From IMG/VR virus record IMGVR_UViG_3300022758_000415: a stretch of DNA of 4,043 nucleotides; one strand, given 5' to 3'. How positions within the stretch are numbered: the first letter of the stretch is position 1; each line of letters starts with the position of its first letter. Below, one piece after another: positions 1 to 4,043 of the stretch. The stretch is from a virus. Lineage: Duplodnaviria > Heunggongvirae > Uroviricota > Caudoviricetes. The position numbers and the translations under genes are program-made. Below the pieces are notes generated by a model. The model did not search any database and was not told the origin of the DNA. It saw only the letters and a program-made list of their open reading frames with translations.

Positions 1-149
1 CGACTTCCGTACCAGTCCGCAAAATCCCCTGAATATCAAGCCTTCCGTAGATTTACAGTTCGTCATGGTTCGCGTCAGATCGTTGACAGCCGCACTCCAT
101 GACGGGTAAAAAAGTGGATAAAATAATTTTACCCACCGGATTTTTACCC

Positions 150-1308
150 ATGCTCACCGTTAAGCAGATTGAAGCAGCAAAGCCGAAAGAAAAACCATAC
201 CGCCTTCTCGATGGTAATGGCCTGTACCTTTATGTCCCTGTGTCAGGGAAAAAGGTATGGCAGCTTCGCTACAAGATTGACGGTAAGGAGAAAATCCTGA
301 CCGTCGGAAAATATCCGCTTATGACTTTGCAGGAGGCAAGGGATAAAGCATGGACTGCGAGGAAAGACATCTCGGTTGGCATCGATCCGGTAAAGGCGAA
401 AAAGGCTTCGTCTAACAACAATTCCTTTAGTGCGATTTACAAGGAATGGTACGAGCACAAGAAGCAAGTCTGGTCAGTAGGCTATGCAACTGAACTTGCC
501 AAAATGTTTGATGACGACATTTTACCTATCATCGGCAGCCTTGAAATTCAGGATATTGAGCCGATGCAACTTCTGGAAGTAATCCGCAGATTTGAAGATC
601 GCGGTGCAATGGAGCGAGCCAACAAAGCACGCAGAAGATGCGGCGAGGTTTTCCGTTACGCTATTGTCACCGGAAGGGCTAAATATAACCCGGCACCTGA
701 CCTTGCTGACGCCATGAAGGGATACCGCAAGAAGAACTTCCCGTTTCTTCCTGCAGACCAGATCCCTGCATTCAACAAAGCACTGGCAACATTTTCAGGA
801 AGTATCGTATCGCTCATTGCGACCAAAGTTTTACGCTACACAGCCCTAAGAACGAAAGAGCTTCGTTCCATGCAATGGAAGAACGTCGATTTTGAAAACA
901 GGATTATCACTATCGACGCCAGTGTGATGAAGGGACGCAAGATTCATGTTGTCCCGATGTCGGACCAGGTGGTTGAACTTCTCACTACGCTAAGCTCAAT
1001 CACCAAACCAGTATCAGAGTTTGATTTTTGCCGGGCGCAACGATAAGAAGAAGCCAATCTGCGAGAACGCGGTACTGCTTGTGATCAAACAAATCGGCTA
1101 TGAAGGTCTGGAAAGCGGTCACGGATTCAGGCATGAATTCAGCACGATTATGAACGAGCACGAATGGCCTGCTGATGCTATTGAAGTACAACTGGCACAT
1201 GCCAACGGCGGATCTGTACGCGGAATTTACAACCATGCTCAGTATCTCGATAAGCGCAGAGAAATGATGCAGTGGTGGGCAGACTGGCTTGATGAAAAGG
1301 TGGAGTGA
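150..1308 (+). pseudogene. intS: P4-family tyrosine integrase (IntS-like), reading frame broken by a 1-nt indel around the T5 run at 1025-1029; would be intact if that run is really T4
   Basis: Seen: ORF 99-1046 translates to an N-terminal domain (MLTVKQIEAAKPKEKPYRLLDGNGLYLYV...WQLRYKIDGKE) resembling the P4 integrase N-terminus. ORF 1021-1308, in the +1 frame, carries the catalytic region (GHGFRHEF, LAH, VRGIYNHAQY, MMQWWADWLD). The span 150-1308 is 1159 nt, not a multiple of 3. Deleting one T at 1025-1029 gives a continuous ...PVSEFDFAGRNDKKKP... Start assigned to ATG 150 (MLTVKQ) rather than ATG 99 because homology begins there; no strong Shine-Dalgarno at either. The symbol intS is by analogy to the int-gtrA-gtrB arrangement I recall in E. 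coli K-12 CPS-53, not from a search. Confidence 0.85.
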
Positions 1309-1396
1309 ACCACCTTAACTATCGAATGACACAAATCCTTGCAATCCAGTGCAAAGCTTTGTGTACCAGAGTTTTTCTTCATCAACTACCGCAAGT

Positions 1397-1406
1397 ATCG
1401 ATCGAT
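1397..1406. repeat. Perfect 10-bp palindrome ATCGATCGAT containing the only Dam GATC site in the int-gtrA intergenic region; regulatory role unproven
   Basis: Seen: ATCGATCGAT at 1397-1406 is self-complementary and is immediately followed by TTGAGA (1406-1411), a -35-like hexamer about 50 nt upstream of the gtrA ATG. No convincing -10 at canonical spacing. Confidence 0.25.
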
Positions 1407-1457
1407 TGAGACTTGGATGATAGACTTCATGCCTTTCAGAACTCATTGATTAAATAA

Positions 1458-1820
1458 ATGTTAAAGCTATTTGCAAAGTACACCTCGATTGGTGTGCTGA
1501 ACACACTTATACACTGGGTGGTTTTTGGTGTATGTATCTATGCCGCGCATACCAATCAGGCTCTGGCAAACTTCGCAGGTTTCGTTGTGGCTGTGAGTTT
1601 TAGCTTCTTCGCGAATGCAAAATTCACATTCAAAGCATCGACTACAACGATGCGCTACATGTTATTTGTCGGGTTCATGGGAACACTGAGTGCAACTGTT
1701 GGATGGGCTGCTGATAGATGTTCACTTCCTCCAATTATCACTCTCGTCACCTTTTCCGCCATCAGCCTGGTGTGCGGTTTCGTCTATTCAAAGTTCATTG
1801 TCTTTAGGGATGCGAAATGA
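1458..1820 (+). CDS. gtrA: GtrA, small 4-helix membrane protein of the O-antigen glucosylation system (flippase for undecaprenyl-phosphate glucose)
   Basis: Seen: 120-aa hydrophobic protein ([25 protein letters not shown]...[10 protein letters not shown]) matching my recollection of the highly conserved GtrA/YfdG family. Stop TGA 1818-1820 overlaps the gtrB ATG 1817-1819 (ATGA). Sits directly upstream of a GT2 gtrB. Weak Shine-Dalgarno. Confidence 0.9.
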
Positions 1821-2716
1821 AGATATCTCTTGTAGTTCCTGTCTTCAATGAAGAAGAAGCGATACCAATTTTTTATAAAACGGTACGTGAATTCGAAGAG
1901 TTGAAGCCATATGAAGTGGAAATTGTTTTCATAAATGACGGAAGCAAAGACGCTACGGAGTCAATTATTAATGCTCTGGCTGTTTCTGATCCGCTAGTTG
2001 TTCCGCTGTCATTTACACGCAACTTTGGTAAAGAACCAGCATTGTTTGCAGGGTTAGACCATGCAACTGGCGATGCCGTGATTCCAATTGATGTTGACCT
2101 GCAAGACCCGATTGAGGTCATTCCTCATCTTATTGAAAAGTGGCAGGCAGGTGCTGATATGGTGCTGGCAAAGCGCTCTGACAGATCAACTGATGGTAGG
2201 TTAAAGCGTAAAACTGCTGAGTGGTTTTATAAACTTCACAACAAAATTAGTAATCCGCAGATTGAAGAGAACGTTGGTGACTTCCGTCTTATGTCACGAG
2301 AGATGGTAGAAAATATCAAACTACTGCCAGAGCGTAACCTGTTTATGAAAGGCGTTTTATCTTGGGTTGGCGGTAAGACGGATGTTGTTGAATACATCCG
2401 TGCTGAACGCGTTGCCGGAAGCACAAAGTTCAATGGCTGGAAGCTCTGGAACCTGGCGCTTGAGGGGATTACAAGTTTCTCGACCTTCCCCTTGCGCGTG
2501 TGGACTTACATCGGTCTACTTGTTGCGGGACTCTCGTTCCTTTACGGGGTGTGGATGATTTTCGACACATTGGTGTTCGGTAATGCTGTCCGTGGTTATC
2601 CATCGCTATTGGTTTCAATTCTTTTCCTGGGGGGAATTCAGTTGATAGGTATTGGTGTGCTTGGGGAATACATTGGCAGAATATATGTCGAAGTAAATCA
2701 AGACCAAGATATATAA
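1817..2716 (+). CDS. gtrB: GtrB, GT2-family bactoprenol glucosyltransferase; C-terminus as sequenced is probably frameshifted, authentic stop predicted at 2737-2739
   Basis: Seen: GT2 N-terminus [17 protein letters not shown], DxD-type motif IDVDLQDP, two C-terminal hydrophobic helices, and LGEYIGRIY as in ArnC/GtrB. RBS AGGGA about 6 nt upstream of the ATG. The annotated frame ends ...EVNQDQDI, while the +1 frame from about 2696 reads [14 protein letters not shown], containing the RPRY motif conserved at ArnC/GtrB C-termini. Confidence 0.9.
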
Positions 2717-2731
2717 TTAAGGGGTCTAAAG

Positions 2732-3138
2732 ATGTTTAAATTAACGCGATATGAAATGCCAGCGATACTTATAGTCGCTTGCTTCTTCCTTCCATTCTTT
2801 TATATGCCTCCTTTTGTGGATGATGTAGCAAGATATTCATACGGATATATCGGGCTAGCTTCTCAAGGTCGATTTCTTACCGAGTTGTATTACATCCTTT
2901 TGAATTCATCAGGAAGTTGATCTCGCCAGATGTTTATCAACTGAACCTTGTTGTTTCATTTGTTATCATGATAGTAGCCTGCAATTACTTTGCTGAATCT
3001 GTGTTTGGCAAGCAATGGATTGCAAAAACAATCACGATATGTGTTTTAATTTGTTCTCCATTTTATATTGAAAACATGTCATACCACATTGATGTTATTG
3101 GAATGTCGGCATCGTTTTCTTTGGCTATGCTGGAGTAG
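2732..3138 (+). pseudogene. N-terminal remnant (about 134 codons after correcting one frameshift) of a serotype-specific GT-C glucosyltransferase (gtr type gene); frameshifted and truncated
   Basis: Seen: occupies the third position of the gtr operon, with RBS AAGGGG upstream of ATG 2732. Hydrophobic N-terminus followed by PFVDDVARYSYG, which resembles the D[DE]xxRY first periplasmic loop motif of GT-C enzymes such as ArnT. ORFs 2732-2920 and 2917-3138 join if the T4 run at 2898-2901 is T5 (...ELYYILFEFIRKLISPDVYQ...). The frame ends at TAG 3136-3138, far short of the 400-500 aa expected for this family. Markedly AT-richer than its neighbours by eye. Confidence 0.55.
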
Positions 3139-3283
3139 CTGTTGCGGTATCGCAGTAATGACGAGTGTCAACAAACTTATCCATGCCATCGATATCAAGT
3201 ACGCAAAACCATGTGTGATTCGGCATTTCAACAGATGGTATTTGTTGCCCACGTCGACGTTTATCAATAAGACATACAGTCAT
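3125..3283 (-). CDS. Short 52-codon ORF translationally coupled to the upstream hypothetical gene; possibly the 5' remnant of a truncated gene
   Basis: Seen: ATG (complement of 3281-3283) overlaps the TGA stop of the 3826-3280 gene as ATGA. Translation is MTVCLIDKRRRGQQIPSVEMPNHTWFCVLDIDGMDKFVDTRHYCDTATATPA, ending at TAG (complement of 3125-3127). It was not in the supplied ORF track, presumably because it is short. It ends within about 14 nt of the end of the gtr-type remnant. Confidence 0.25.
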   Translation of the reverse strand: MTVCLIDKRRRGQQIPSVEMPNHTWFCVLDIDGMDKFVDTRHYCDTATATPA

Positions 3284-3826
3284 GGTTCCACCTTCTCTAT
3301 TTGCTTAAGACCGTCTCTCACTGCATTAAGTACGCGTTCCAGATACTGGTATTTCGGGTTTGGTACCGTTGGCCAGTCGGCATACCACGGATCATCACCA
3401 AAGAGATTCAGCAGTTTGTTACCGACGCCGAAACAACAGCAGCTTTCTTTTACGTCATCGGCGTTTTCCGCCTCGTCCCACATTTCGCGAGCCTGTACCG
3501 CGTCGATTTCTTTCTCTCTTCGTAACTTTATGATTTCTGACTTCACGAAAAGCAGATTTGCATCGTTGTCATCGTCGACCGTGCTTAGCAGTTGAGGGTC
3601 GAAAATTGTCGATTAGATAGTCGTTGCTAACTCGCTTAATGAACGTCTGCACATCATCACCGCCCATAGCAAACCAAGCCGCAGTCCACGCCTTTCCGTA
3701 GCAGGTGATGGTGATTCTTCCCTTACCAGGTTCGTAGTTTTCAATCATCACTCGAACCGGATCTAGTCGCTCTGCACCGGTTATAACGAATGACAACACA
3801 TCAATCTTTTCAACCGTTACACTCAC
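3280..3826 (-). CDS. Hypothetical acidic protein of about 180 aa, function unknown; interrupted as sequenced by a 1-nt indel at the A4 run 3602-3605
   Basis: Seen: GTG start at 3826-3824 preceded by a strong Shine-Dalgarno AAGGAGG (complement of 3834-3840) with a 7-nt spacer. ORFs 3826-3569 and 3546-3280 on the - strand join into one protein (...SNDYLIDNF/DPQLLSTVDDDNDANLLF...) if one base is removed from the homopolymer. Central acidic stretch, CCC triplet and a PWYADWPTVPNPKYQYL C-terminal region. I do not recognise the family. Confidence 0.6.
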
Positions 3827-3866
3827 TGGTTCGCCTCCTTTGCGAAGCTGGTCGGCGACTCGTTAA

Positions 3867-3894
3867 GTGATATGTAGCAATCTCCAAATGTTAA
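3867..3894 (-). promoter_or_regulatory. Candidate sigma70 promoter for the - strand hypothetical gene (-35 TTAACA, 16-nt spacer, -10 TATCAC)
   Basis: Seen: on the - strand, TTAACA (complement of 3889-3894) and TATCAC (complement of 3867-3872) separated by 16 nt, about 40 nt upstream of the GTG start. Hexamer match only, so weak. Confidence 0.2.
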
Positions 3895-4043
3895 CGAACC
3901 GCTCGACTGCATATGCTCCATAGGCCATCTCCACGCCCTGCGCCCGTACCTTCAGCCAAGAAAGCGTCGGTGGCTGTGGTTTCCGATATCGTTAATTTCA
4001 GGAAGAATCTCTTCCCATGTAGCGATATCGCCATTCAAATGCC

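What the first reader, a model, noticed from the sequence alone, without database searches (positions are those of the whole stretch)
2690..2739. GtrB C-terminus: conserved RPRYII motif sits in the +1 frame
The annotated GtrB ends ...[13 protein letters not shown] at 2716. Adding one A to the A3 run at 2695-2697 instead yields ...[16 protein letters not shown] with a stop at 2737-2739. The RP(K/R)Y motif is what I recall at the C-terminus of ArnC/GtrB-type enzymes. The stop would then overlap the next ATG at 2732, giving a tightly coupled gtrB-gtr(type) junction.
Basis: partly seen in the sequence, partly recalled or inferred. Interest (0 to 1): 0.45.

Follow-up and report, generated by a model that had tools for sequence, protein, structure and literature searches.

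The report
One-base sequencing error truncating gtrB

Summary
gtrB (1817-2716) ends ...EVNQDQDI*. Adding one A to the A3 run at 2695-2697 gives ...[16 protein letters not shown], with a stop at 2737-2739 that overlaps the next ATG (2732) by 8 nt. The motif lies in the -1 (+2) frame, not the +1 frame.

All 120 closest homologue clusters, Synechocystis GtrB and ArnC carry K/R-x-R-P-x-Y/F at this point, and none ends like NQDQDI. The repaired 307-aa protein matches exactly an E. coli protein seen on 78 contigs.

The cause is almost certainly a sequence error:
- The window is a complete 4,043-nt JGI/IMG contig.
- Across 3,128 nt it has no substitutions against an E. coli genome (GCA_052515165.1) and differs by four 1-nt indels.
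- Three of those four break genes (intS, gtrB, gtr-type). The fourth lies upstream of intS.
- Six more 1-nt indels break the phage genes at 3134-4043, five of them within 72 codons.
- All ten are absent from every relative compared, and reversing them restores the conserved ORFs.

The locus is a standard prophage intS-gtrA-gtrB-gtr(type) O-antigen glucosylation cassette. There is no sign of programmed frameshifting or phase variation. Interest is low.

The parts
150..1308 (+). intS prophage integrase. It is split into two ORFs by an extra A at 1024 (TTTG[A]TTTTT).
   Evidence: Aligns to intS of NCTC11121 (L001 3144..4301) and to the 385-aa integrase of L004. Removing base 1024 restores one ORF.
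1458..1820 (+). gtrA (120 aa), intact. Its stop overlaps the gtrB ATG by 4 nt (ATGA at 1817-1820).
   Evidence: PF04138 GtrA_DPMS_TM, E=1.7e-13. The exact protein is present in 154 blocks of the public collection.
1817..2716 (+). gtrB as it reads in the window: 299 aa, correct up to V293, then the out-of-frame tail NQDQDI*.
   Evidence: PF00535, E=4e-31. ORF listed.
2695..2697 (+). A3 run where one A is missing. All relatives have A4.
   Evidence: Pairwise alignments to L001, L002, L003, L004 and L005. It is the only difference from L002 in the 45 nt downstream and the 1,445 nt upstream of it.
2698..2739 (+). True C-terminal coding segment of gtrB in the -1 (+2) frame: [13 protein letters not shown] plus TAA. 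It corresponds to the C-terminal beta-hairpin tail that follows TM2.
   Evidence: Translation. Motif conserved in 120 of 120 homologues and in solved GtrB and ArnC. Role of the tail taken from PMC4728340, PMC12690121 and PMC12698845.
2719..2724 (+). AAGGGG, a Shine-Dalgarno-like sequence 7 nt upstream of the gtr(type) ATG, lying inside the true gtrB tail.
   Evidence: Read directly from the sequence. Its function is inferred.
2732..3133 (+). N-terminal third of the serotype-specific gtr(type) glucosyltransferase (GtrII-like). It is frameshifted by a missing A at 2913 (A2 versus A3) and cut off at 3133 of the window, about codon 134 of 473.
   Evidence: The intact 473-aa homologue in L001 hits PF14264 Glucos_trans_II, E=2.6e-21. 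Alignments.
3134..4043 (-). Unrelated lambdoid/P22-like early-region genes (DUF7739 fragment, phiTE_072-family, YfdS-family) carrying six further 1-nt indels at 3602, 3832, 3857, 3923, 3949 and 3983.
   Evidence: Annotated relatives L006, L007 and L008. Alignments. Reversing the indels restores the conserved reading frames.

Best explanation
The window carries an ordinary prophage O-antigen glucosylation cassette: intS, gtrA, gtrB and gtr(type). GtrB is the GT2 enzyme that makes undecaprenyl-phosphate-glucose. Its real gene is 307 codons long and ends ...[16 protein letters not shown], and its stop overlaps the start of the next gene by 8 nt. In this record one A of an A4 run is missing, so the last 14 codons are read out of frame as NQDQDI*. 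The missing base is most probably a sequencing or assembly error in a low-quality 4,043-nt metagenome contig, one of ten such single-base indels, and not a mutation in the organism. Shown here: the lesion, the conserved frame, and the indel-only pattern of differences. Inferred: that the indels are technical, because no reads could be examined.
For: (a) Window 6..3133 and E. coli GCA_052515165.1 (L004) show 0 substitutions in about 3,128 aligned bases and four 1-nt indels: +A at 108, +A at 1024, -A at 2695-97, -A at 2913. A gut-metagenome contig (L002) and a second E. coli assembly (L005) match in the same way from window position 1248 onward, with a single mismatch at 1250.
(b) The remaining 910 nt hold six more 1-nt indels relative to 95-98% identical E. 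coli prophages. Five of them lie within 72 codons of a YfdS-family gene. Reversing them restores the conserved protein sequence.
(c) Seven of the ten indels are insertions, and several are not in homopolymers (TTTG[A]TTTTT, GGTT[C]GCC). This looks like read error rather than replication slippage.
(d) The 299-aa product exists in about 15 billion proteins only on one JGI/IMG contig of 4,043 nt, which is this window. The repaired 307-aa product is an exact E. coli protein seen on 78 contigs.
(e) The broken intS and gtr(type) ORF products are on record nowhere else.
(f) Every gene in the window except the 363-nt gtrA is frameshifted.
Against: No reads or quality values were available, so the error is inferred from comparison only. 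The contig also contains a truncated gtr(type) gene joined to unrelated phage DNA at 3133/3134. If that junction is genuine, the locus is a degraded prophage in which real frameshifts would be tolerated. A short A4-to-A3 contraction is also a plausible natural slippage event.
Confidence: 0.85

Rival explanations
1. This is a genuine 1-nt deletion in a decaying, defective prophage. gtrB would be a recent pseudogene, or would encode a protein lacking its C-terminal beta-hairpin, in a cassette already inactivated by truncation of the gtr(type) gene.
For: The gtr(type) gene is cut off at about codon 134 and joined to unrelated phage genes at 3133/3134, as expected for a prophage remnant. intS and gtr(type) also carry frameshifts. 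gtr pseudogenes in Shigella, Salmonella and E. coli are mentioned in the literature (hits, papers not read in detail).
Against: Zero substitutions alongside four indels in 3.1 kb is very unlikely for natural decay. From general knowledge of E. coli mutation-accumulation studies, base substitutions outnumber small indels several-fold, so four indels out of four events has a probability of roughly 1e-3 to 1e-4. Five frameshifts within 72 otherwise conserved codons at the contig end cannot plausibly be biological, which shows that the record contains technical indels. The A3 allele is private to this contig.
Confidence: 0.12
2. The frame change is functional. Either a programmed -1 ribosomal frameshift at GUA-AAU-C produces the RPRYII tail, or the A-run acts as a slipped-strand phase-variation switch for O-antigen glucosylation.
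For: The conserved tail is intact and stop-free in the -1 frame. From general knowledge, gtr operons are known to phase-vary in Salmonella, but by Dam/OxyR methylation rather than by slippage.
Against: There is no X XXY YYZ slippery heptamer at the site (sequence). Every relative examined encodes the tail in frame with A4, as do all 120 homologue clusters. A 3-4 nt run is far shorter than known contingency tracts. The same contig has nine other frameshifting indels in unrelated genes.
Confidence: 0.01
3. The 299-aa NQDQDI-ending protein is a genuine functional GtrB variant with a divergent short tail.
For: The GT-A domain, juxtamembrane region and both TM helices (to residue 293) are unaffected.
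Against: No homologue has such a tail, and the shortest of the 120 closest is 300 aa. The DNA after the shift is identical to that encoding the conserved tail, so the variant tail is merely the out-of-frame reading of conserved sequence. In GtrB and ArnC structures the lost tail bridges neighbouring protomers of the tetramer.
Confidence: 0.02

Closest known systems
YfdH/GtrB bactoprenol glucosyltransferase of E. coli argW-type prophages (CPS-53-like intS-yfdG-yfdH-gtr(type) cassette), e.g. E. coli NCTC11121 WP_097729459.1 and the exact 307-aa E. coli protein EHP0635526.1
   Same: Same gene order next to tRNA-Arg/intS. The DNA is identical to GCA_052515165.1 apart from 1-nt indels. The repaired protein is an exact match. 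The 8-nt gtrB/gtr(type) overlap is the same.
   Different: The window lacks one A at 2695-2697, so the last 14 residues are replaced by 6 out-of-frame residues. The downstream gtr(type) gene is truncated.
GtrB of Shigella flexneri serotype-converting phages (SfII, SfIV, SfV, SfI)
   Same: gtrA-gtrB matches at 84-86% DNA identity, annotated as flippase plus bactoprenol glucosyltransferase. In general knowledge these phages use the same three-gene O-antigen glucosylation scheme.
   Different: Different phage backbone and a different type-specific third gene.
Synechocystis GtrB (PDB 5EKP/5EKE, 9NYC etc.) and Salmonella/E. coli ArnC (8VXH, 9BHC, 9HWJ)
   Same: Homologous over residues 2-302 (E=3.8e-89 and about 1e-43 to 1e-45), including the (K/R)xRPxY tail. 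[quoted passage not shown]
   Different: About 50% or lower identity. ArnC transfers L-Ara4FN rather than glucose. As read in the window, the tail is absent.

Membership tests
GtrB / polyisoprenyl-phosphate glycosyltransferase (GT2, GtrB-ArnC type) | N-terminal GT-A catalytic domain (Pfam Glycos_transf_2) with a DxD motif | tested here: met
   PF00535 at residues 4-167, E=4.4e-31, 108.5 bits against a cut-off of 23.3. [10 protein letters not shown] aligns to IPIDADLQDP of Synechocystis GtrB.
GtrB / polyisoprenyl-phosphate glycosyltransferase (GT2, GtrB-ArnC type) | Two C-terminal transmembrane helices after a juxtamembrane region | tested here: met
   Full-length alignment to solved GtrB through both TM helices. 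The AF2 model has helices at 223-254 and 260-294.
GtrB / polyisoprenyl-phosphate glycosyltransferase (GT2, GtrB-ArnC type) | Conserved cytosolic tail (K/R)-x-R-P-x-(Y/F)-hydrophobic after TM2 (the C-terminal beta-hairpin) | tested here: not met
   It is absent from the ORF as it reads in the window (NQDQDI*). It is present, and identical to relatives, in the -1 frame or after restoring one A. It is conserved in 120 of 120 homologues. The gene is therefore a member, while the open frame as recorded is defective.
GtrB / polyisoprenyl-phosphate glycosyltransferase (GT2, GtrB-ArnC type) | Operon context gtrA-gtrB-gtr(type) on a prophage | tested here: met
   GtrA PF04138 lies upstream with a 4-nt overlap. 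A GtrII-like gene (PF14264 in the intact homologue) lies downstream. intS and tRNA-Arg flank the cassette in relatives.
GtrB / polyisoprenyl-phosphate glycosyltransferase (GT2, GtrB-ArnC type) | UDP-glucose:undecaprenyl-phosphate glucosyltransferase activity | not testable with these tools
   Inferred only from homology to Synechocystis GtrB, which was assayed in PMC4728340.
Programmed -1 ribosomal frameshift site | Slippery heptamer X XXY YYZ, and conservation of the two-frame arrangement among relatives | tested here: not met
   The site reads GAA GTA AAT CAA with no slippery heptamer. All relatives encode the tail in frame.
Slipped-strand phase-variable (contingency) gene | Long homopolymer or short tandem repeat tract whose length varies among strains | tested here: not met
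   The tract is only 3 nt here and 4 nt in every relative examined. No other A3 allele is on record.
Natural pseudogene in a decaying prophage | Lesions accompanied by substitutions and/or shared by a lineage | tested here: not met
   There are 0 substitutions against 4 indels over 3,128 nt. All ten indels are absent from every relative compared. Five frameshifts fall within 72 conserved codons.

The most novel reading that the evidence does not exclude
The A3 allele is real in the source organism. It would then be a natural GtrB that keeps the catalytic domain and both TM helices but lacks the conserved C-terminal beta-hairpin. That would be a ready-made test of whether the hairpin, which bridges protomers in GtrB and ArnC tetramers, is needed for assembly or activity.
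Probability: 0.1. Interest if true: 0.2.

Novelty: already known. Interest (0 to 1): 0.06.

Why it matters
Biologically it matters very little. The gene, its conserved tail, the overlapping junction and the cassette are all well known. The practical value is in annotation:
- The contig should be treated as indel-error-prone.
- The 299-aa GtrB stored from it in the JGI/IMG-derived protein collection, and the broken ORFs called from its other frameshifted genes, are artefactual.
- The correct product is the 307-aa E. coli protein.
- Comparing a contig with a near-identical reference and counting indels against substitutions is a quick way to separate technical frameshifts from real pseudogenes.

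Tried and rejected
- Exact-product look-ups of the three broken ORFs (299, 62 and 315 aa) in the gene-position index found nothing. The cluster look-up later showed that the 299-aa protein exists only on a single 4,043-nt JGI contig.
- Scans of GTDB species genomes for the A3/A4 site and for the 3133/3134 junction found nothing.
- IMG/VR scans for the junction and for a right-hand 36-mer found nothing. The source sample could therefore not be identified, and no second copy of the junction was found.
- No complete E. coli genome covers more than 80% of the window.
- The AlphaFold2 monomer model of the repaired protein had mean pLDDT 68 and below 50 for residues 296-307. This is unsurprising if, as the solved structures show, the tail packs on a neighbouring protomer. 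The model was uninformative for the tail and gave only the TM2 boundary at about residue 294. No fold search was run on it.
- Programmed frameshifting and phase variation were considered and rejected: there is no slippery site, the run is short, and all relatives read in frame.
- No closer relative of the right-hand 910 nt than 98% identity was found. The zero-substitution test could therefore be applied only to the left 3.1 kb.

Full report
**What is in the window**

The ORF list and Pfam/NCBIfam scans show a prophage O-antigen glucosylation cassette.
- An integrase (intS) runs from about 150 to 1308. It is split into a 315-aa and a 95-aa ORF.
- gtrA lies at 1458-1820 (PF04138).
- gtrB lies at 1817-2716 (299 aa, PF00535 GT2).
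- At 2732 begins the N-terminal part of a serotype-specific glucosyltransferase. The intact homologue is 473 aa and hits PF14264 GtrII.
- From 3134 onward the minus strand carries unrelated lambdoid/P22-like early genes: a DUF7739 fragment, a phiTE_072-family gene and a YfdS-family gene.
- In E. coli NCTC11121 the same cassette sits beside tRNA-Arg as intS-yfdG-yfdH-glucosyltransferase. The gtrAB pair is 84-86% identical to those of Shigella phages SfII, SfIV, SfV and SfI.

**Checking the observation**

- gtrB as read ends [13 protein letters not shown] at 2716.
- Positions 2695-2697 are AAA.
- The frame beginning at 2698 reads [13 protein letters not shown], followed by TAA at 2737-2739.
- Adding one A gives a 307-aa protein ending [16 protein letters not shown]. 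Its stop overlaps ATG 2732 by 8 nt.
The only correction is that the motif is in the -1 (+2) frame relative to gtrB. The +1 frame is full of stops.

**Is that the real C-terminus?**

Yes.
- All 120 best cluster representatives (87-93% identical) continue GEYxGRxYxExK-x-[RK]-P-[KR]-[YF]-hydrophobic. They are 300-341 aa long, and none ends like NQDQDI.
- At the aligned position, solved Synechocystis GtrB has EVKARPLYLV and ArnC has DVRARPRYFV.
- A profile built from the 120 homologues scores the window protein at 648.5 bits, with the match ending at profile position 295 of 307. The repaired protein scores 667.5 bits, with the match ending at 305.
- The curated NCBIfam PgfS and ArnC models score NCTC11121's intact 307-aa protein about 19 bits higher than the window's 299-aa protein.
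- My AF2 monomer model places the end of TM2 at residue 294, which is the frameshift point. It gives no confident structure for the tail.

**Is an A really missing?**

- NCTC11121 (95.8% identical) has GAAGTAAAATCAAGACC, and its yfdH ends [16 protein letters not shown], overlapping the next gene by 8 nt.
- A human-gut metagenome contig (L002) is identical to window 1248-2739 apart from one base at 1250 and the A4 run.
- Looking up the exact GtrA protein led to two NCBI E. coli assemblies with an intact 307-aa GtrB and a 473-aa type gene.
- The repaired 307-aa protein is an exact E. coli protein seen on 78 contigs. The 299-aa form exists only on one JGI/IMG contig of 4,043 nt. The window is therefore an entire metagenome contig.

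**Mutation or artefact?**

The decisive result comes from the comparison with L004 (GCA_052515165.1).
- Across window 6-3133 there are no substitutions.
- There are four single-base indels: +A at 108, +A at 1024 (intS frameshift, not in an A run), -A at 2695-97 (gtrB) and -A at 2913 (gtr-type).
- The right-hand 910 nt, compared with 95-98% identical prophages, contain six more: +A at 3602, +C at 3832, -A at 3857, +G at 3923, +C at 3949 and +C at 3983.
- Reversing all ten restores intS, gtrB, the type-gene N-terminus and the 181-aa phiTE_072-family ORF.
- It also restores a YfdS-family C-terminus that matches its homologue almost residue for residue. In the window that region hops through all three frames, with five shifts in 72 codons.

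Natural decay produces substitutions as well as indels, and it does not put five frameshifts into 72 otherwise conserved codons. The indels are insertion-biased (7 to 3), several lie outside homopolymers, all are absent from every relative compared, and they are densest at the contig end. I therefore conclude, at about 85% confidence, that the gtrB A3 is a sequencing or assembly error. A genuine recent deletion in a degraded prophage remains possible at about 12%, because the type gene is truncated at 3133/3134. That junction could itself be a chimera, and it was found in no other collection.

**Rejected alternatives**

Programmed -1 frameshifting and slipped-strand phase variation both fail their defining tests. 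There is no slippery heptamer, the run is only 3-4 nt, and every relative is in frame.

**Comparison with what is known, and novelty**

This is a member of the GtrB/YfdH family, and the repaired protein is an exact match to a known E. coli protein. The conserved tail, the gtrA/gtrB 4-nt overlap and the gtrB/gtr(type) 8-nt overlap are standard features of these cassettes. Nothing here is new. The useful outcome is a quality flag on the contig and on the artefactual 299-aa GtrB stored from it.

**Verdict**

The cause is most likely technical. Interest is very low.

Noticed in passing
window 1024: An extra A (TTTG[A]TTTTT) splits the intS integrase into 315-aa and 95-aa ORFs. All relatives lack it. 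It is not a homopolymer change.
   Followed up: yes
window 108: A6 here versus A5 in relatives, upstream of the real intS start (ATG 150). It puts ATG 99 in frame, which is why the listed ORF starts at 99 rather than at the real start.
   Followed up: partly
window 2913: A missing A (GGAAGTT versus GGAAAGTT) frameshifts the gtr(type) glucosyltransferase after residue 61, splitting it into 62-aa and 73-aa ORFs.
   Followed up: yes
window 3133/3134: Homology to the gtr(type) gene stops at about codon 134 of 473 and switches to the interior of a DUF7739 phage gene on the opposite strand, with only a few bases of microhomology (CTGG/CCGG-AG). The junction was not found in GTDB genomes or in IMG/VR. 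It could be a real prophage deletion or rearrangement, or an assembly chimera.
   Followed up: partly
window 3602-3983 (- strand genes): Six further private 1-nt indels lie here. One splits the phiTE_072-family gene. Five fall within the last 72 codons of a YfdS-family gene at the contig end. Error density rises towards the contig end.
   Followed up: yes
window 1248; L002 and L005: In two other sequences, identity to the window starts abruptly at 1248, inside the 3' end of intS. In L005 the same gtrABC module sits at a different chromosomal site, next to a gene for a PBP5-type D-alanyl-D-alanine carboxypeptidase, with no integrase beside it. This suggests a module boundary or attachment-site position at about 1248, and mobility of the gtr module between P22-like prophage backbones.
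   Followed up: no
window 1817-1820 and 2732-2739: Both gene junctions in the cassette are overlapping: ATGA for gtrA/gtrB, and ATGTTTAA for gtrB/gtr(type) once repaired. An AAGGGG Shine-Dalgarno-like sequence lies at 2719-2724. This is consistent with translational coupling.
   Followed up: partly
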